A DNA stretch of 64,000 nucleotides from an uncultured Candidatus Binatia bacterium (GTDB lineage Bacteria; Desulfobacterota; Binatia; UBA9968; JAJDTQ01), in contig OZ244070.1 of NCBI GenBank assembly GCA_965215605.1, forward strand, positions 128,001 to 192,000. The letters run 5' to 3'. The first letter of the stretch is position 1, and every line of letters starts with the position of its first letter. The notes below the pieces were generated by a model that was not told where the DNA came from, searched no databases, and saw only the letters and a list, made by a program, of their open reading frames with translations. The translations under genes were made by a program, and so were the position numbers. Shown here one piece after another: positions 5,766 to 12,205 of the stretch.

Positions 5766-6164
5766 CTATTCCCGGGAGACACCGGAACCGGAGTCCGGCC
5801 CGCCCTCCAGAGACAGCCGCGGGAGGCGCAACTCGGGAACCGCGCCCCTACTGGCGAACCACGCTTCGAGTGCGTTCAGATCGGCTCCGACGTTGGCCAG
5901 AAAATCCGTCACGTCGACGCCCAGACAGGCCGGCCGGTAGGGTTCGATCCTCCGAACGCCCGCGCGCAGCAGCTTGAGCGTGCCCAGCGGCACCTCCTGC
6001 TGCCACTTGAAGTAACCCGCGGCCACCTGAATAATGCCTTGGTAGAACTCGCGCTCGGGGCCGTGGTCCTCGAGCCAGATCTCCTCCAGGGTCTCGTGAG
6101 CCTGGTAGAAGAGTCCGCGGTTGAACTCGTCGATGCCCTTGAGGAAACGCGGATCGTGTTCCAT
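5766..6164 (-). CDS. DUF309 domain protein
   Basis: FNRGLFYQAHETLEEIW..FYQGIIQVAAG. Confidence 0.85.
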   Translation of the reverse strand: MEHDPRFLKGIDEFNRGLFYQAHETLEEIWLEDHGPEREFYQGIIQVAAGYFKWQQEVPLGTLKLLRAGVRRIEPYRPACLGVDVTDFLANVGADLNALEAWFASRGAVPELRLPRLSLEGGPDSGSGVSRE

Positions 6165-6333
6165 GGCGTGAAGGCGGCCTCCCATGCCGCGCGGCGACAA
6201 GCCGCTTGAACCCTCAATACGTAGCCGATATCAATGACTTGTCAAAGGAACACGGAGCCCACTGTCGCCGGCGGTGACGCGGCATTGCACCGCCTCTCAT
6301 GTCCGTTGGGGTGAGTCGTCCGGAAACAACGCA

Positions 6334-7626
6334 ATGACGGACTACCCCATCCTCACCATCGATTCCCTGATTCACGGCCCCTGGGGGCTCGGGCGGGACC
6401 AGGGCAAGGTGGTCCTGGTCCCCATGACGGCACCGGGCGACCAGGTGTCGGCGGAAGTGGTGGAGGAGCACAAGCGGCACTCGGTGGCCCGGACGGTGTC
6501 GCTCCTGCGCCCGTCGCCCGTACGCCGGGAACCGCCCTGCCCCTACGCCGGGACCTGCGGCGGCTGCGCATGGCAGCAGGTGTCCTACGAGGCGCAACTC
6601 CACGCCAAGCAGCAAAACGTCGCCGACGCCCTGGCCCGGGTCGGGGGCATCAGCGGCTTCGATCCCCTGCCCATCCTGCCCGCGTCGCAGGAGTTCCACT
6701 ACCGGCGGCGCATCGCTCTCCAGGTCGACGACCGCCGCAGGCTCGGGTTCCGCCGCGCGTTTTCGCGGGAGTTGGTGGAGGTGGACCATTGCCTCATCGC
6801 CGACCCGGACGCGGACCGCGGCATTCCGCTGGCGGCCGAATGGGTCGCACGGCTGGAAACCGAAGTCACGAGAGTCGAGATACTGAGCGGCGACCGCCCG
6901 GGCGAGGTGGTCCTGTCGGCCACCGCCCGCCACCGGCCGGGCGGCGCCGACGAACGTGCCTGCGAGGCGTCCGTAGCCGGCCCGGTGACGGGAATCGTCA
7001 TGGCGGGCCAAGGCTGGCGCCGGCAGTGGGGCGACACCACCGTCTCCTTCGTGGTGGACGGCGATCTGACATTGCGGCACGACGCCGGCACCTTCGGACA
7101 GGTCAACCCGGCGGGCAACCGGAAGCTGGTGGACGAGCTGCTTTCATGGGGCGCGTGGGGCGCGGAGGACAGCGTCCTGGAGCTCTACGCCGGCGCCGGC
7201 AACCTGACGCTTCCCGTGGCGCGCCGGGTCCAGCGGGTGATGGCGGTGGAAGGCCGCCGGCGACTTGTCGAGAACGGCAGGCGCAACGTCGCGGACAACG
7301 GTATCCGCAACATACGGTGGCGGGGGCAGGATGCCCTGGCGGCGGTGGAGGATTTCATCCGCCGCGGGCGCCGCTTCAACACCCTGGTACTCAATCCTCC
7401 CCGGGCCGGGGCCAAGGTGCTGGCCCCTAAACTGGCCGCGCTGGGGGCGGAAAGAATCCTTTACGTCTCGTGCGATCCGGCGACGCTGGCGCGGGACCTT
7501 CGTCAGATTACCGCCACGGGCTACACCCTGCGCCGGGTCCGCCCGGTGGATCTCTTTCCGCAGACCTTCCACGTCGAAACGTTGGCCGAACTGATCGCTT
7601 CCAAGCCGTCCGACCCGTCCACGTAG
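6334..7626 (+). CDS. rlmD: 23S rRNA (uracil-C5)-methyltransferase, TRAM domain (RlmD/RumA family)
   Basis: TRAM N-terminus, CPYAGTCGGC Fe-S motif, ELYAGAG, NPPRAG, YVSCDPATLARD, DLFPQTFHVE. Confidence 0.88.
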   Translation: MTDYPILTIDSLIHGPWGLGRDQGKVVLVPMTAPGDQVSAEVVEEHKRHSVARTVSLLRPSPVRREPPCPYAGTCGGCAWQQVSYEAQLHAKQQNVADALARVGGISGFDPLPILPASQEFHYRRRIALQVDDRRRLGFRRAFSRELVEVDHCLIADPDADRGIPLAAEWVARLETEVTRVEILSGDRPGEVVLSATARHRPGGADERACEASVAGPVTGIVMAGQGWRRQWGDTTVSFVVDGDLTLRHDAGTFGQVNPAGNRKLVDELLSWGAWGAEDSVLELYAGAGNLTLPVARRVQRVMAVEGRRRLVENGRRNVADNGIRNIRWRGQDALAAVEDFIRRGRRFNTLVLNPPRAGAKVLAPKLAALGAERILYVSCDPATLARDLRQITATGYTLRRVRPVDLFPQTFHVETLAELIASKPSDPST

Positions 7627-7773
7627 CTGAACGAATGAGCCGTTTTTCGGGGGGTTACGGTTTGTATGTACATCTCTACTTGAAAGGAAATCGTGGCCGG
7701 GACGCGCCGTTACCCAAACTTCAGGGTTGAGTTGCGGACTCCAACTGGTGTAGAGTGTGCCGGGGAGGAAGAA

Positions 7774-8019
7774 ATGACCCAGCCGAAGAAAAGGGTAACT
7801 CCGAAGGTCACCATCATCGACAGCAACGGCGCCAGCCAGACGATCAACTACCTGCTCGAAGACCGGGACGAGCTCGAATGGCTGATGGCGGTGGGACGGA
7901 ACAAGAACGGTGACATCTTCTTTTACGACACCGGCGGCGACATTCTCCATGATCTCGGAGCGCTGGAGTACGTAAAGGAGCGGATTCTCAGGGACTACTT
8001 CGGCGAAATGGACGAGTAA
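7774..8019 (+). CDS. Small acidic hypothetical protein (81 aa)
   Basis: GGAGGA RBS, host-like codon usage, globular composition. Confidence 0.7.
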   Translation: MTQPKKRVTPKVTIIDSNGASQTINYLLEDRDELEWLMAVGRNKNGDIFFYDTGGDILHDLGALEYVKERILRDYFGEMDE

Positions 8020-8047
8020 CCACTCCTGACGGCGGTGGCGGCGGGGC

Positions 8048-9412
8048 TCAGCGGTCCGGCTTCGCGGAACCCTGAAGACGCATCCACAGGAAGGCCGCGG
8101 CCGCCACGACCATCACCGCACTGAGATACTGCCCCCGGGACAGTCCCAGCGCCAGCCCCAGATGGGCGTCGGGTTCACGGAAGAACTCCACCATGAACCG
8201 GACGGCGCCGTAGCCGCCGATGAACGCCCAGGTCACGACGCCGTGTGCCCGCACCCGCGTTCCCAACCACAACAGCAGCGCCAGTAGAACCGCCCCCTCG
8301 AGAAACGCCTCGTAGAGCTGGGAGGGATGGCGCGGCAAGGGACCGCCGCCGGGAAAGACCATCGCCCACGGCACCTCCGTGGCGCGGCCGTACAACTCCC
8401 CGTTGATGAAGTTGCCGAGCCGGCCGAGTCCCAGGCCAAGGGGCGCGGCGGCGATGATGCAGTCCGCCGCGGGATAGAACGGCAAACCCTGCTTGCGCAC
8501 GTACCACCATCCCGCGAGCAGCGCCCCCAGCATGCCGCCGTGAAAGGACATGCCGCCGTGCCAAAAGGCGAAGATCTGTGACGGAGAGGCCAGATAATAC
8601 GAGAGATTATAGAAGATCACGTAGCCCAACCGGCCGCCCAGAACCACGCCGATGGCCACGTAGCTGATGAGCTCCACCAGTTGCTCGCTGCCGAGAGCGA
8701 GGCCTCTCCGGCGGGCCAGCCACAGGGCAATGAAATAGCCGCCGACGAACCCGAACAGGTACATGAGGCCGTACCACCGCACCGACAGCGGCCCGACCCG
8801 GAACGCCACGGGGTCGATGCGGGGAAAGGACCACGGCGCCGCCTCCACGGCTCCCCTGTCCACGACGGCCGTGCTCTCGATCTTCCCGTCCCCGAGCAGC
8901 GCGGCCACCAGCTCGCGCACGTCGTCCTTGTACCAGTCCTTGTATCCGATGGCCTTGGCGATGACCTCGCCCTTGCGTCCGATCAGCACGGACACCGGCA
9001 GCCGCATCACTCCGTACTGCTCGGCGATGTCGGCCTGTCTGTCCAGCAGCATCGGATAGGTCAGCTTCTGTTCGTCCGCGAACGCCCGCACCAGGTCTGG
9101 GGACTCCATGAAGTTCACCGCCACCACCTCCAGCCCCTTGCCGCGGAACTCCTGGTAGAGCCGCTCCATGGCCGGCATCTCCAGACGGCAGGGAGGGCAC
9201 CACGTCGCCCAGAAGTTCAGCAGCACCAGCTTGCCCCGGAAGGACGCGGCGTCGACACGGTTTCCGGCCGCGTCCTCGGTGGTGAAGCCGGGTGATTCGA
9301 CGAAGCCTTCCTGCACGAGGAAGCCGAGCTTCTTCAGGCGATCGTCCGCCGCCGCGCCCACGACCGCCGGGCAAAGCGCGATGAGAAGCAATGCGAGCAG
9401 ACAGCGTTTCAT
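8048..9412 (-). CDS. lgt: Fusion of a TlpA/ResA-like thiol-disulfide oxidoreductase and prolipoprotein diacylglyceryl transferase
   Basis: Signal peptide, LNFWATWCPPCRLEMP, then DPVAF..RWYGLMY, GGMSFHGG, LGRLGNFINGELYGR, HPSQLYE, VEFFREPD in one uninterrupted frame. Confidence 0.9.
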   Translation of the reverse strand: MKRCLLALLLIALCPAVVGAAADDRLKKLGFLVQEGFVESPGFTTEDAAGNRVDAASFRGKLVLLNFWATWCPPCRLEMPAMERLYQEFRGKGLEVVAVNFMESPDLVRAFADEQKLTYPMLLDRQADIAEQYGVMRLPVSVLIGRKGEVIAKAIGYKDWYKDDVRELVAALLGDGKIESTAVVDRGAVEAAPWSFPRIDPVAFRVGPLSVRWYGLMYLFGFVGGYFIALWLARRRGLALGSEQLVELISYVAIGVVLGGRLGYVIFYNLSYYLASPSQIFAFWHGGMSFHGGMLGALLAGWWYVRKQGLPFYPAADCIIAAAPLGLGLGRLGNFINGELYGRATEVPWAMVFPGGGPLPRHPSQLYEAFLEGAVLLALLLWLGTRVRAHGVVTWAFIGGYGAVRFMVEFFREPDAHLGLALGLSRGQYLSAVMVVAAAAFLWMRLQGSAKPDR

Positions 9413-9422
9413 GACCGTATGG

Positions 9423-10481
9423 CTATGGGGCGGAGCGGCCCGGCCCCAGGGCGAGCCCCCCGTCGCCGCCCCCGCTCGCGGCGTTGGCGGCGTCGTCCTC
9501 GGCGATGAGCCTGCAGGCCACCAGCACCAGTATCGGGACGATGTACATGTGGCCGCTGACCCACATGATGCCGCCGCCGAGGGCCTGGTCCTGGACCGGG
9601 CTCAATTTCTCGATCACCGGAACGGCCGCGTAGAACGGATACAGAACGCGCTCGGGCAGGGCGATGGCCATGCCGAGCAGCGTGTTCTGAAGGGTCGCAG
9701 CCAGCAGGTACACGATTCTCCACCCCAACGGGCGCATGGGGCGGAACAGCGGCGCGGCGTTGACGACGGGCCACCAGAAGAGCACGGCCGTGCCGAAGAA
9801 CAGCCAGTGCTCCAGGTCGTGCAGCCACCAATACTCCAGCGCGGCCTGGTACAGCGCGGGGTGGTGCCAAGCCCACAGGTTCGCCACGTAGAGGGCCCAG
9901 GCTACCGGCATGGAGGTCAACACGGACAGCGCGGACCGGAGCGGAGCGCCGTCGCGGAACAGCGCGGCGAAGCGCTCCCGGATCGCGGCGGGGAGGCCCC
10001 AGACCACGGCGGCAAAGGGGTTGGCCAGGAGGATCCCCAGCGGCGCCACCATCAGCAGCAGGATGTGCTGCACCATGTGCATGCTGAGCCGCTCCGAGGC
10101 CAGACGGTCCACCGGAGAGACCAGCGCTGTCAGGAGGGCGGCGATGCCGCCGAGGTAGAGAGCCAGACCGGACAGGGTGGCGGCGCCATCGGCCTGTCTG
10201 CGGAGCCGGCGCCACCCGGTGAGATAGACGGCCGCGGCCAGCGCCAGTGCCAGAAGAATGTCCGCGCGGAAGTTCCACGGGATCATCCCGAACACCAAGA
10301 CCAGTGCGTCGAACGGCAACGGCTCGTGCGGTGAGCCGCCGTGACCGTAGAGTGCCCCCGGCCACCACCACGCCGCCAGCGTCAGGCCGGCGGTGTTCGC
10401 CGCGGACCGGAGCCGCGGCCTCGGGCTTCTCTTCCCGTCCGCCAGACGGCACCGGCCGCCGGGTCTCAAGACACCCGCCAC
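9423..10481 (-). CDS. ctaG: Caa3-type cytochrome c oxidase assembly factor CtaG
   Basis: SMHMVQHILLLMVAP, WAWHHPALY, HDLEH..F, DQALGGGIMW; exact start uncertain. Confidence 0.85.
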   Translation of the reverse strand: MAGVLRPGGRCRLADGKRSPRPRLRSAANTAGLTLAAWWWPGALYGHGGSPHEPLPFDALVLVFGMIPWNFRADILLALALAAAVYLTGWRRLRRQADGAATLSGLALYLGGIAALLTALVSPVDRLASERLSMHMVQHILLLMVAPLGILLANPFAAVVWGLPAAIRERFAALFRDGAPLRSALSVLTSMPVAWALYVANLWAWHHPALYQAALEYWWLHDLEHWLFFGTAVLFWWPVVNAAPLFRPMRPLGWRIVYLLAATLQNTLLGMAIALPERVLYPFYAAVPVIEKLSPVQDQALGGGIMWVSGHMYIVPILVLVACRLIAEDDAANAASGGGDGGLALGPGRSAP

Positions 10482-10831
10482 AGCATGAACCCCCAGGAGG
10501 GCAGCAGCGCCACGGCGCCGAGGAACCAGTAGACGGCCCCCGGGACTGTCGCCGGCCGCGCCTTGAGCCGTCTCACGCAGAACTCCGTGACAATGACGCC
10601 CAGCAACCCGCTGGCGGTCGAAAGCGCGAGCAGTGCCTTCATGCCCTTGTCCGGATTCTCTCCCGACAAACCGCCCAGCAACACCATCAGGGCGATGATC
10701 CAGGCCGGCGCCGTGGCCGCGAGGCCCACCATCCAGTAGCGCTCGGGCTTGCCGAGACGATCCCGCAGACAGGCCGACGCCAGCGCTCCCGCCAGCACGC
10801 CGATCACTCCGATCCAGATGGATAGCGTCAC
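10466..10831 (-). CDS. Hypothetical 4-TM membrane protein
   Basis: GTG start after a purine-rich RBS; four hydrophobic segments; first gene of the ctaG/tlpA-lgt run. Confidence 0.65.
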   Translation of the reverse strand: MTLSIWIGVIGVLAGALASACLRDRLGKPERYWMVGLAATAPAWIIALMVLLGGLSGENPDKGMKALLALSTASGLLGVIVTEFCVRRLKARPATVPGAVYWFLGAVALLPSWGFMLWRVS

Positions 10832-10864
10832 TCCCCTGCTCCTTCTCCGGCGGCGTCCGAACGC

Positions 10865-10889
10865 GGGCGGGTTTGAAACCCGCCCCTGC
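10865..10889 (-). repeat. GTAG-type REP element
   Basis: Minus strand GCAGGGGCGGGTTTCAAACCCGCCC hairpin; near-identical copy at 12643. Confidence 0.75.
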
Positions 10890-10990
10890 ACGGAAATCTA
10901 ACAGCCGGGACCGTGACTTGAAAGCGCGCCCCGGGCCTGGGCTTGCCGGTGGCGCCCACTACGCGTAAGACGGGAGCATCGAGCCCCGAC

Positions 10991-12205
10991 ATGCGCTTTT
11001 CCGTTTCCTCCCTGTTCGACCTGGGCGAGCTTCCCGCGGAGCTTCGCCGCTCGCTGAGCCTCGTCTACGCCTCCAGCGTGCTGGCGATCATGGGGGTGAA
11101 CCTCATCCAACCGGTGCTGCCGGCGATGATCGCGCCGTTCGGCATCACCGACGCCGACGTCGGGCTGGTGATCGCGGTCTACACCGCTCCCGCCATCCTG
11201 CTGGCGCCGCTCCTGGGAATCGCGGCCGACCGCTGCGGCCGGCGGCCGCTCCTGGCGGGAGGATTGATCCTGTTCGGCGCGGCCGGCACCGCCGTGGCCT
11301 TCGCCCCGGACTTCCGCTGGGTGCTGGCGCTGCGGGCGGTGCAGGGCATCGGCTTCAGCGCCGTCATCCCGCTCACCATCGTGCTTATCGGCGACCTGCT
11401 GGAGGAGCGCCGGGAGGTATCCGGCCAGGGCATGAAGGTCTTCATCGACCGGATCGGCGAGCTGGTGCTGCCGCCCCTCGGCGGCGCCCTTGCCCTGGTC
11501 GGCTGGCGCTGGCCGTTCCTGTCCTACGCGGCCGCCGTTCCCCTGGGGTTGCTGGTGCTCCGTTGGATGCCCGAGACCCGTGGAACCAGCTCCGCTTCGC
11601 TGGGGCGCTACCTCAGGGACGTGGCCCGGGTGGCCAGGAACCCGCGGCTGCTGCTGGCCTTCGCCGCCGGCTTCCTGCGCTTCTTCCTGGACTACGCGTT
11701 CTTCACCTATCTGCCGCTGTTCGTGGTCCGGACCCACGGCCTCACCACCGCCGGGGCGGGGCTGCTGCGGTCCCTGCACGCGCTGGGCGCCATGGTCACT
11801 TCCAGCCAGGCCGGGCGCCTGGCGGGCTCGTGGGACAAGGGGACCCTGGTCCTCGGCGCCTTCATCGTGAGCGGGCTCGCCCTCCTGGCGGTCCCCTTCA
11901 CTCCGGACATGGCAACCCTGGCTCCGGTGCTGCTGTTCTATGGAGTGGCCAACGGAATCATCTCGCCGATGCAGAAGAGCCTGTTGACCCAGAACGCCCC
12001 GCTGGAGCTGCGTGGCGGCGTCATCTCCCTGGACCGGCTGAGCCAGCAGATCGCCAAGACCGCCGGGGTGTCCGGCATCGGCCTGATGCTGGGGGTGGCG
12101 GAGATATCCACGCTCTTCTGGATCATGGCGGTGCTGTCGTTCGTGAGCGTCGGGCTGATGGCGCCCCTGGCCTGGAGCTCCAGGGACCGGGCGCTAGCGC
12201 CTTGA
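10991..12205 (+). CDS. MFS transporter (DHA1-like)
   Basis: QPVLP, GIAADRCGRR motif A, LRAVQGIG motif B, 12 TM segments. Confidence 0.85.
   Translation: MRFSVSSLFDLGELPAELRRSLSLVYASSVLAIMGVNLIQPVLPAMIAPFGITDADVGLVIAVYTAPAILLAPLLGIAADRCGRRPLLAGGLILFGAAGTAVAFAPDFRWVLALRAVQGIGFSAVIPLTIVLIGDLLEERREVSGQGMKVFIDRIGELVLPPLGGALALVGWRWPFLSYAAAVPLGLLVLRWMPETRGTSSASLGRYLRDVARVARNPRLLLAFAAGFLRFFLDYAFFTYLPLFVVRTHGLTTAGAGLLRSLHALGAMVTSSQAGRLAGSWDKGTLVLGAFIVSGLALLAVPFTPDMATLAPVLLFYGVANGIISPMQKSLLTQNAPLELRGGVISLDRLSQQIAKTAGVSGIGLMLGVAEISTLFWIMAVLSFVSVGLMAPLAWSSRDRALAP

What the first reader, a model, noticed from the sequence alone, without database searches (positions are those of the whole stretch)
8048..9412. 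Thioredoxin (TlpA)-Lgt fusion: a possible reduce-then-lipidate lipoprotein maturation enzyme
Seen: one 454-aa frame with a signal peptide, a complete TlpA/ResA domain (WCPPC), a linker of about 20 aa and a full Lgt with all signature motifs. There is no stop or frameshift between the domains and no Met at the Lgt start. Known: Lgt is normally single-domain, needs the free thiol of the lipobox Cys, and has a periplasm-facing N-terminal arm, so an exported thioredoxin fused there fits the topology. Inference: the fused domain keeps the +1 Cys of prolipoproteins reduced or metal-free before diacylglyceryl transfer. I do not know of a characterised example.
Basis: partly seen in the sequence, partly recalled or inferred. 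Interest (0 to 1): 0.8.

Follow-up and report, generated by a model that had tools for sequence, protein, structure and literature searches.

The report
Thioredoxin domain fused to Lgt
The bacterium's only lipoprotein-lipidating enzyme (Lgt) carries an exported thioredoxin-type domain on its front end; the join is real and arose more than once among close relatives, but it looks like a membrane-anchor swap, and a role in preparing lipoproteins for lipidation is untested.

Summary
A 454-aa ORF lies on the minus strand at 8048-9412. It has a signal peptide, a TlpA/ResA-type thioredoxin domain (WCPPC, C72/C75), a linker of about 18 aa, and a canonical Lgt that keeps every essential residue. It is the only Lgt-family gene found in the genome.

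The fusion is not an artefact. 8 of 28 species genomes of the genus carry it, 19 of 28 have the two genes split but adjacent, and both domains are under purifying selection.

In split relatives the thioredoxin protein ends in its own C-terminal membrane helix. The fused genes have lost that helix, the stop codon, the spacer and, in the window, the lgt start codon. Junction anatomy and AU tests indicate at least two, probably three, independent in-frame deletions.

The gene order ctaG, tlpA-like, lgt is genus-wide. In the sister family the thioredoxin gene lies near ctaG or beside an MFS gene, without lgt.

My best reading is that a copper/oxidase-linked periplasmic reductase has been re-anchored on Lgt. 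The finding is a new variant of known kinds, of moderate interest.

The parts
8048..9412 (-). Whole fused ORF, 454 aa plus stop: signal peptide, TlpA-like thioredoxin domain, linker, Lgt
9347..9412 (-). Residues 1-22: predicted Sec signal peptide with a likely signal-peptidase-I site after VGA. It is not a lipobox, because the Cys in it is not conserved (P0044 has W there).
   Evidence: reading; hydropathy; low pLDDT at 1-20; no predictor run
8909..9292 (-). Residues 41-168: AhpC-TSA/Redoxin (TlpA/ResA-type thioredoxin fold)
   Evidence: model pLDDT 80-92
9188..9199 (-). CPPC active site (C72, C75) within WCPPC
   Evidence: invariant in alignment A1
8834..8887 (-). Residues 176-193: flexible linker. 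Its last codons are the translated former 5' leader of lgt (a GGAG-type Shine-Dalgarno remnant), and the old start codon has been replaced by CCG.
8051..8833 (-). Residues 194-454: canonical Lgt (beta-1, arm-1, seven predicted TM helices)
8387..8425 (-). Lgt signature GRLGNFINGELYG (G330-G342; R331 = E. coli R143, N334 = N146, G342 = G154)
9423..10481 (-). Upstream gene: Caa3_CtaG cytochrome oxidase assembly factor. Its stop lies 10 nt before the fused ORF's ATG. It is conserved upstream in all 24 genus loci examined.
10466..10891 (-). 141-aa hydrophobic ORF overlapping the ctaG start by 16 nt, with no Pfam match. It is possibly the first gene of the operon.

Best explanation
This is a genuine, expressed-as-one-frame bifunctional gene. 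After Sec export and probable cleavage of the signal peptide, a TlpA-family thiol-disulfide reductase domain sits in the periplasm. [quoted passage not shown]

The fusion arose by in-frame deletion between two neighbouring genes. The deletion removed the thioredoxin protein's own C-terminal transmembrane anchor and Arg-rich tail, its stop codon and the spacer. Lgt therefore now serves as the membrane anchor.

The thioredoxin domain most likely keeps the job it had as a stand-alone protein anchored by a C-terminal tail in the ctaG-tlpA cluster. That job is to reduce cysteines of membrane-proximal copper-site proteins (the CuA site of oxidase subunit II, and Sco), using electrons from CcdA. On this reading the fusion is a re-anchoring that is tolerated or mildly useful, not a new catalytic coupling.

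Shown here: the domain anatomy, conservation of catalytic residues, that this is the only Lgt-family gene found, the deletion origin, recurrence of the fusion, purifying selection, and the gene context. Inferred: signal-peptide cleavage, CcdA as the electron source, and the identity of the clients.
For: Anatomy and catalytic residues.

Only one PF01790 match in the 97%-complete genome.

Split relatives: in the 17 split genus loci read, the TlpA-like protein ends in a TM helix plus an Arg-rich tail, and lgt starts at GTG or ATG immediately before W2. The fused forms lack exactly that stretch.

Census of 28 genomes (the whole family, one genus): 8 fused, 19 split and adjacent, 1 without a match (76% complete).

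Recurrence: there are three junction types. An AU test rejects one clade for all 7 fused rows (delta lnL 75.2, p 4.5e-6). It also rejects joining L006 to the L002-5 group (p 0.0027).

Selection: dN/dS for the Trx domain is 0.02-0.23 in 7 fused-fused pairs, against 0.09-0.22 for Lgt in 8 fused-fused pairs. CxxC and the cis-Pro are invariant.

Context: ctaG lies directly upstream in 24 of 24 genus loci. In the sister family, L029 has ctaG about 1.4 kb from the orthologue, L030 has the same divergent MFS neighbour as the window, and none of L028-L030 has lgt beside it. Those orthologues also have a signal peptide plus a C-terminal anchor. In L026 a Cupredoxin_1 ORF precedes TlpA.

The genome holds the candidate clients and the electron donor: COX1 and COX2 with a CuA motif, two Sco1, and one CcdA.

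The cytochrome c role is taken by a separate CcmG-like gene next to CcmH.

Literature: TlpA reduces ScoI and CoxB (passages of reviews PMC6696091 and PMC9145763). Caa3_CtaG is an oxidase assembly factor.

The linker is predicted to be disordered.
Against: Two or three independent fusions within 28 species is a lot for a neutral event, and may mean that proximity to Lgt is selected.

TlpA-like genes sit tightly against Lgt-family genes in unrelated lineages too: L034 and L035 with gaps of 6 and 2 nt, L069 with CcdA between them, L026 and L027, and the reverse-order fusions P0318 and P0327.

The Trx domain falls below the NCBIfam cut-offs for both ResA (123.1 of 170) and TlpA (94.3 of 230), so its client cannot be read from orthology.

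The ctaG gene is not next to the oxidase genes in this genome.

Outside the genus, ctaG was seen near the orthologue in only 1 of the 3 sister-family loci examined.

No experiment bears on any of this.
Confidence: 0.5

Rival explanations
1. Reduce-then-lipidate. The tethered thioredoxin domain reduces, or de-metallates, the lipobox +1 cysteine of prolipoproteins at the periplasmic mouth of Lgt, so that thioether formation can proceed in an oxidising periplasm.
For: The topology fits. The Lgt N-terminus (beta-1) is part of the periplasmic head, next to arm-1 and the front cleft (PMC4728403). The short linker keeps the CxxC near the membrane surface, where the lipobox Cys sits. The fusion recurred two or three times. 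It is the only Lgt-family gene found, so every lipoprotein passes this protein. A VKOR-family oxidase gene indicates an oxidising envelope. Lgt-family and TlpA genes are linked or fused in other phyla.
Against: 19 of 28 congeners keep the two proteins separate, each with its own anchor. The orthologue in the sister family has no lgt neighbour, and its older linkage is to ctaG. The Lgt-family partners in distant lineages are divergent paralogues that lack residues essential in E. coli, so they may not be Lgt at all. Mao 2016 infer that E. coli Lgt needs no partner protein. No paper on such a step was found.
Confidence: 0.25
2. The domain is a general envelope thiol-repair or stress reductase with other clients, for example methionine sulfoxide reductase, peroxiredoxin-type partners, or Lgt's own Cys318. 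Both the ctaG and the lgt neighbourhoods would then be incidental.
For: Membership of the TlpA family says little about the client. The domain misses the ResA, TlpA, CcmG and StoA cut-offs. Thioredoxin domains fuse promiscuously: one search lists fusions with CcdA and other domains. Lgt also accepts unrelated fusions, such as Ank, TauE and Cu-oxidase_4.
Against: The ctaG-tlpA order is conserved in 24 of 24 genus loci, and copper-protein neighbours recur in two further loci. No Msr or peroxiredoxin partner was seen beside the gene.
Confidence: 0.15
3. It is not a functional fusion. It is either an assembly or frameshift artefact, or a frame from which Lgt is still made separately by internal initiation.
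For: One fused type (L007) keeps the old GTG start and an SD-like motif in frame. The only runs that bridge the junction may be the source of the window.
Against: The frame is intact in 8 species genomes, including single-contig ones, and in 8 protein clusters from several sources. dN/dS is well below 1 in both halves. In the window the old start codon is CCG, and there is no ATG, GTG or TTG between the SD remnant and W194. Contigs from two samples cover 8400-9500 with 0 differences and 0 gaps.
Confidence: 0.03

Closest known systems
E. coli Lgt (PDB 5AZB/5AZC), prolipoprotein diacylglyceryl transferase
   Same: Residues 194-454 align to it over nearly its full length (209 bits). The equivalents of Y26, G99, H103, G104, G142, R143, G145, N146, E151, G154, E202, Y235, R239, E243 and R246 are all conserved. 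The model predicts seven helices.
   Different: The window protein carries about 193 extra N-terminal residues: a signal peptide, a thioredoxin domain and a linker. The 2026 survey of Lgt diversity mentions only the M. tuberculosis C-terminal extension, and the terms 'fusion', 'fused' and 'thioredoxin' are absent from its text (PMC13251419).
TlpA (Bradyrhizobium) and ResA (Bacillus), membrane-tethered periplasmic thiol-disulfide reductases
   Same: The fold matches (ResA 4nmu 94.9 bits, 1st9 92.7 bits; TlpA 1jfu 77.9 bits). It has CxxC and a cis-Pro, and is extracytoplasmic and membrane-tethered. Its gene neighbour is an oxidase assembly factor.
   Different: The motif is CPPC. Scores fall below the NCBIfam cut-offs for both. 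In the split relatives the anchor is a C-terminal helix after a cleavable signal peptide. From memory, not from a call, TlpA and ResA have an N-terminal anchor. Here the anchor is Lgt.
Reverse-order Lgt-like::TlpA fusions P0318 and P0327 (metagenomic, uncharacterised)
   Same: They combine the same two Pfam families in one protein.
   Different: The order is the opposite: Lgt-family domain, then an internal lipoprotein-like signal segment with Cys, then Trx. The Lgt part is a divergent paralogue, with the N146 equivalent as C, the Y26 equivalent as F and the E151 equivalent as D. These are a different family and an independent event.
Bacterial VKOR homologues fused to a thioredoxin-like domain (recalled from memory)
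   Same: This is the same design principle: an integral membrane enzyme carrying a periplasmic Trx-type domain in one chain. The window's genome has a VKOR-family ORF with a C-terminal CxxC-bearing part.
   Different: In VKOR fusions the two parts are known redox partners. Here no redox chemistry links Trx and Lgt.
Other natural Lgt fusions: Ank-Lgt (P0145), TauE-Lgt (P0150, P0187), Lgt-Cu-oxidase_4 (P0135)
   Same: They show that Lgt tolerates extra domains at either end.
   Different: The partner domains are unrelated, and none has been characterised.

Membership tests
Lgt (PF01790 / TIGR00544) | Profile match over the curated cut-off along the whole domain | tested here: met
   PF01790 254.8 bits (cut-off 24.9), profile positions 1-239 of 240. 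TIGR00544 234.9 bits (cut-off 118.9).
Lgt (PF01790 / TIGR00544) | Residues essential in E. coli (Y26, H103, R143, N146, G154, R239) and the signature motif | tested here: met
   They correspond to Y214, H291, R331, N334, G342 and R405, and the signature is GRLGNFINGELYG. The list of residues comes from PMC13251419 section 11.
Lgt (PF01790 / TIGR00544) | Seven-TM body with a periplasmic N-terminus and head domain | tested here: met
   The AlphaFold2 model has helices at 213-235, 242-268, 290-307, 312-336, 364-386, 392-408 and 426-448, with pLDDT mostly above 90. This is a prediction only.
Lgt (PF01790 / TIGR00544) | Diacylglyceryl transfer to the lipobox Cys | not testable with these tools
   Inferred from this being the only PF01790 match in a 97%-complete genome that also has one Lsp.
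TlpA/ResA-type thiol-disulfide oxidoreductase (Redoxin / AhpC-TSA) | Thioredoxin-fold profile match, CxxC and cis-Pro | tested here: met
   PF00578 103.4 bits and PF08534 94.5 bits. WCPPC and the loop Pro are invariant in 49 rows of alignment A1.
ResA subfamily (NF002854) | Score over NCBI's cut-off | tested here: not met
   123.1 bits against a cut-off of 170. In addition, no ResB was found in the genome.
TlpA equivalog (NF047696) | Score over NCBI's cut-off | tested here: not met
   94.3 bits against a cut-off of 230.
CcmG/DsbE (TIGR00385) | Score over the cut-off, and ccm gene context | tested here: not met
   48.8 bits against a cut-off of 123.15. A different Trx gene sits next to CcmH.
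TlpA/ResA-type thiol-disulfide oxidoreductase (Redoxin / AhpC-TSA) | Extracytoplasmic location and a membrane electron donor (CcdA/DsbD) | tested here: inconclusive
   The signal peptide is read by eye and by hydropathy only. One DsbD_TM/CcdA gene is present elsewhere in the genome. No link between the two was shown.

The most novel reading that the evidence does not exclude
The thioredoxin domain is a dedicated prolipoprotein-thiol reductase built onto Lgt. The repeated fusions in this genus, together with the TlpA-like genes welded to Lgt-family genes in Chloroflexota, Actinomycetota and other lineages, would then reveal an undescribed redox quality-control step at the entry of the lipoprotein maturation pathway in oxidising envelopes.
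Probability: 0.25. Interest if true: 0.8.

Novelty: new variant of a known kind. Interest (0 to 1): 0.5.

Why it matters
Lgt is the committed step of bacterial lipoprotein maturation, is usually essential, and is being pursued as a drug target. It is treated as a stand-alone single-domain enzyme.

A natural fusion that is conserved, recurred independently, and places a redox-active CxxC domain at Lgt's periplasmic face gives a ready-made way to ask whether the redox state of the lipobox thiol is ever limiting.

Even if the fusion is only an anchor swap, it is a clean and datable example of how an in-frame deletion joins neighbouring membrane-protein genes only in the way topology allows. It also flags an unstudied family of divergent Lgt-like paralogues that travel with TlpA/CcdA genes.

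Tried and rejected
Docking test. Complex prediction with the Lgt half (alignment A2) and the Trx half (A1) returned 'no answer', score 0.00. It counts neither for nor against binding.

Alignment A3 was discarded. MAFFT placed the Trx-only rows in separate columns: P0044 showed 22% identity there against 83% in A1. A4 was used for the fold instead.

The protein-atlas search: the best scores were 0.77-0.80, below the 0.9 threshold, and all hits were TlpA-type clusters. No cluster had both families. This is no evidence on novelty.

The search of protein representatives: none of the best 150 of 152,909 hits was a Trx-Lgt protein. I ran Pfam on 10 of those 150. The fused cluster itself was not listed as a representative, so this search is blind to such forms.

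Reads. No RNA holder was listed. Runs X5 and X6 of a related organism gave no cover across 8844-8880, and one contig there joins 8834 to 8900 with unknown content. I draw nothing from that.

The promoter/terminator scan of 7600-11400 found nothing useful.

Shared lipoprotein clients. COX2 and both Sco1 proteins have TM or plain signal sequences without a lipobox, by my reading of the ORFs. PCuAC and YtkA/CtaK were not found with these families in a 97%-complete genome. The idea that Lgt and the Trx domain share known copper-chaperone lipoprotein clients therefore got no support.

A cytochrome c maturation role was rejected. ResB was not found, and a separate CcmG-like gene abuts CcmH.

I did not pursue the taxon further.

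Literature. Four searches and a term search inside the 2026 Lgt survey found no description of a thioredoxin-Lgt fusion or of reduction of the lipobox Cys. Subscription journals and supplements were not searchable, and InterPro architecture tables could not be queried.

Count of Lgt near TlpA-like genes elsewhere. 4 of 79 Trx-bearing loci had an Lgt-family hit within the flanks. The 80 loci were the best of 591 by a score that rewards having both domains, so the rate is biased upward and I do not use it as an enrichment.

The sub-clade AU tests used groups that I defined after seeing the tree and the junctions, so their p-values are indicative only. Recombination between congeners could mimic independent origins on the tree, but it cannot explain the different junction anatomy of L007.
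Full report
OBSERVATION. The ORF exists exactly at 8048..9412, but on the minus strand, and encodes 454 aa. Pfam places AhpC-TSA/Redoxin at residues 41-168 and a full-length LGT domain at 201-443. NCBIfam's lgt equivalog TIGR00544 is passed (234.9 bits against 118.9). The ResA, TlpA, CcmG and StoA models all score below their cut-offs. The active site is WCPPC, with C72 and C75.

Against the solved E. coli Lgt (5AZB, 209 bits), every residue listed as essential is conserved. The lists come from Mao 2016 (PMC4728403, passages) and Legood 2026 (PMC13251419, section 11). The equivalents are Y214, H291, R331, N334, G342 and R405, and the equivalents of G99, G142, G145, Y235, E243 and R246 are conserved too.

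An AlphaFold2 model built on alignment A4 (79 rows) has mean pLDDT 84.7 and pTM 0.66. It shows two confident domains, a low-confidence signal peptide (1-20) and a low-confidence linker (176-189).

NOT AN ARTEFACT, AND THE ONLY LGT FOUND. The genome (4.06 Mb, 8 contigs, 97% complete) has one PF01790 match, which is this gene, and one Lsp. The same uninterrupted frame occurs in 8 protein clusters at 72-94% identity in a 5.8-billion-protein collection.

A census of the whole family, which is a single genus of 28 species-level genomes, gives three classes:
- 8 fused: G000, G014, G016, G022, G043, G020, G004 and G013, several of them single-contig assemblies.
- 19 with the two halves as separate but adjacent genes.
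- 1 with no match (G018, 76% complete).

Contigs of two samples from one study cover 8400-9500 with 0 differences and 0 gaps. These may be the window's own source, so conservation across species is the stronger argument.

Nei-Gojobori dN/dS is 0.02-0.23 for the Trx domain in 7 fused-fused pairs and 0.09-0.22 for Lgt in 8 fused-fused pairs. In 4 split-split pairs it is 0.20-0.34 for Trx and 0.16-0.26 for Lgt. Pairs involving L008 have dS above 1, and the script did not capture L005's Trx segment. Both halves are therefore kept by selection after fusion.

HOW THE FUSION AROSE. In the 17 split genus loci that I read, the thioredoxin protein has a signal peptide, the Trx fold, a linker, one C-terminal hydrophobic helix and an Arg-rich tail, then a stop. 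After 20-150 nt (about 480 nt in L019), lgt begins with GTG or ATG directly before the Trp that is W194 in the window.

The three sister-family orthologues that are not next to lgt (L028-L030) have the same architecture of signal peptide plus C-terminal anchor, so that architecture is ancestral. The fused genes lack the helix, the tail, the stop and most of the spacer. Topology explains why. The anchor runs from outside to inside, whereas Lgt starts outside, so only a deletion that removes the helix leaves Lgt correctly oriented.

There are three junction types:
- Type A (L002-L005 and L008, which includes the window) keeps a GGAG-type remnant of the lgt leader, but the start codon has become CCG, CCC, TCG or TCC.
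- Type B (L006) has ACG at that position and a linker two codons shorter.
- Type C (L007) keeps half of the anchor helix, the SD-like motif and the GTG start in frame. It closely resembles the split L015.

A maximum-likelihood tree of Trx plus Lgt (26 rows) needs 3 changes of state, and no bootstrap tree makes the fused rows one group. An AU test rejects one clade for all 7 fused rows (delta lnL 75.2, p 4.5e-6). Type A is compatible with one clade, while type A-core plus L006 is rejected (p 0.0027; those groups were named after I had seen the tree). I conclude that there were at least two, probably three, independent in-frame deletions. In the window's type the product is obligately fused.

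CONTEXT. Directly upstream lies a Caa3_CtaG gene (9423-10481), whose stop is 10 nt before the ATG. Before that is a 141-aa hydrophobic ORF without a Pfam match, which overlaps the ctaG start. An MFS gene lies divergently beyond it.

The order ctaG, then tlpA-like, then lgt is found in 24 of 24 genus loci. In the sister family:
- L029 has the orthologue about 1.4 kb from ctaG.
- L030 has it divergent from an MFS gene, as in the window.
- L028 and L029 have MltA nearby.
- None of the three has lgt beside it.

In L026 a Cupredoxin_1 ORF precedes a TlpA-like gene. The older association is therefore with ctaG and copper proteins, and lgt adjacency is a feature of this genus.

The genome encodes a heme-copper oxidase (COX1, and COX2 with a CuA-type motif), two Sco1 proteins, one CcdA, and a VKOR-family ORF next to one Sco1. 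It has no ResB. A separate CcmG-like thioredoxin sits next to CcmH, so the cytochrome c role is already filled.

TlpA of Bradyrhizobium reduces ScoI and CoxB before metallation (review passages, PMC6696091 and PMC9145763). Caa3_CtaG is required for active caa3 oxidase in B. subtilis, with an unsettled role in the CuA or CuB centre. The same review lists Caa3_CtaG, a thiol-disulfide oxidoreductase, and Lgt/LspA together among the B. subtilis caa3 biogenesis factors, because subunit II, Sco and CtaK are lipoproteins there. In this genome, however, COX2 and both Sco1 proteins lack a lipobox by my reading, and neither PCuAC nor YtkA was found.

BEYOND THE GENUS. I scored only the Trx part among proteins of 249-795 aa. 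10 of the 120 listed hits carry PF01790: the 8 genus clusters plus P0318 and P0327. Those two are fused in the reverse order, with the Lgt-family domain first, then an internal lipoprotein-like signal segment, then TlpA.

In named genomes, TlpA-like genes abut Lgt-family genes in four cases:
- an Ardenticatenaceae MAG (L034, gap 6 nt);
- an Anaerolineae MAG (L035, in the order CcdA, TlpA, Lgt-like, TlpA, with a gap of 2 nt);
- an Actinomycetota MAG (L069, in the order Trx lipoprotein, CcdA, Lgt);
- more loosely, Parageobacillus (L057).

The Lgt-family partners in L034, L035, P0318, P0327, L026 and L027 are divergent. The N146 equivalent is D or C, Y26 varies, and R143 is lost in two of them. 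They are therefore paralogues of unknown function, not housekeeping Lgt. Only L069 and L057 are canonical.

Lgt also occurs fused to ankyrin repeats, TauE and Cu-oxidase_4. The association of TlpA-like genes with Lgt-family genes is thus recurrent but heterogeneous.

MECHANISM. The Lgt half should work as in E. coli. The Trx half is an exported CxxC reductase kept close to the membrane surface. [quoted passage not shown] The fusions keep it from W2 onward. The domain therefore hangs beside the head and arm-1 on a leash of about 18 residues.

My best-supported reading (0.5) is re-anchoring. The stand-alone reductase, anchored by a C-terminal tail in the ctaG cluster, lost its own anchor and now rides on Lgt, and it still serves copper-site cysteines. 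Recurrence and topology favour that reading. The 19 split congeners, the ctaG linkage, and Mao's inference that Lgt needs no partner count against it. A general repair role (0.15) and a non-functional or internally initiated frame (0.03) complete the list.

NOVELTY. Both families are well known, and the fused proteins already sit unnamed in public collections. I found no description of the architecture or of such a step. The finding is a new variant of known kinds, of moderate interest, with a testable and bolder reading attached.

Supplements and InterPro could not be consulted. The complex prediction gave no answer.

Noticed in passing
L034:6409-7197, L035:6450-7217, L026:2334-3110, L027:1907-2677; proteins P0318, P0327: A set of divergent Lgt-family paralogues sits immediately beside, or fused to, TlpA-like and CcdA genes in several phyla. 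In them the E. coli N146 equivalent is D or C, Y26 varies, and R143 is lost in two. Their function is unknown. P0318 and P0327 carry an internal lipobox-like segment between the two domains.
   Followed up: partly
L113:428-1507 (-) = own genome, contig C1, near position 1.79 Mb: A 360-aa ORF with a VKOR domain (90.5 bits) and a C-terminal part bearing a CxxC motif lies next to a Sco1 gene. It is probably a VKOR-thioredoxin-type disulfide oxidase, which implies an oxidising periplasm.
   Followed up: partly
own genome G000:C1:1821772-1822143, C1:1130723-1131121, C1:67604-67939; many sister-family matches: Thioredoxin- and Sco-like matches each contain one in-frame TGA. They are possible selenocysteine-containing redox proteins. 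NCBIfam also gave a weak WAxxUGC-type hit for the query domain.
   Followed up: no
window 10466-10891 (-): A 141-aa hydrophobic ORF without a Pfam match overlaps the ctaG start by 16 nt. It may be the first gene of the ctaG-tlpA::lgt operon.
   Followed up: no
L019 (G001:C12), between tlpA and lgt: The spacer between the split genes is about 480 nt here, against 20-150 nt in the other split genomes. This looks like an insertion of unknown nature.
   Followed up: no
proteins P0145, P0150, P0187, P0135: Other natural Lgt fusions occur in metagenomes: ankyrin repeats-Lgt, TauE-Lgt (two clusters) and Lgt-Cu-oxidase_4.
   Followed up: partly
window 5766-6200 (-), 6274-7626 (+), 10943-12205 (+): The neighbouring genes are a DUF309 protein, a TrmA-like RNA methyltransferase with a TRAM domain, and an MFS transporter. 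The MFS gene is also the divergent neighbour of the TlpA orthologue in the sister-family locus L030.
   Followed up: partly
window residue C318 (about nt 8459-8461, minus strand): The single Cys of the Lgt half lies next to the D129 equivalent. It is conserved in the genus sequences that I read, but it is not part of the general Lgt consensus.
   Followed up: no
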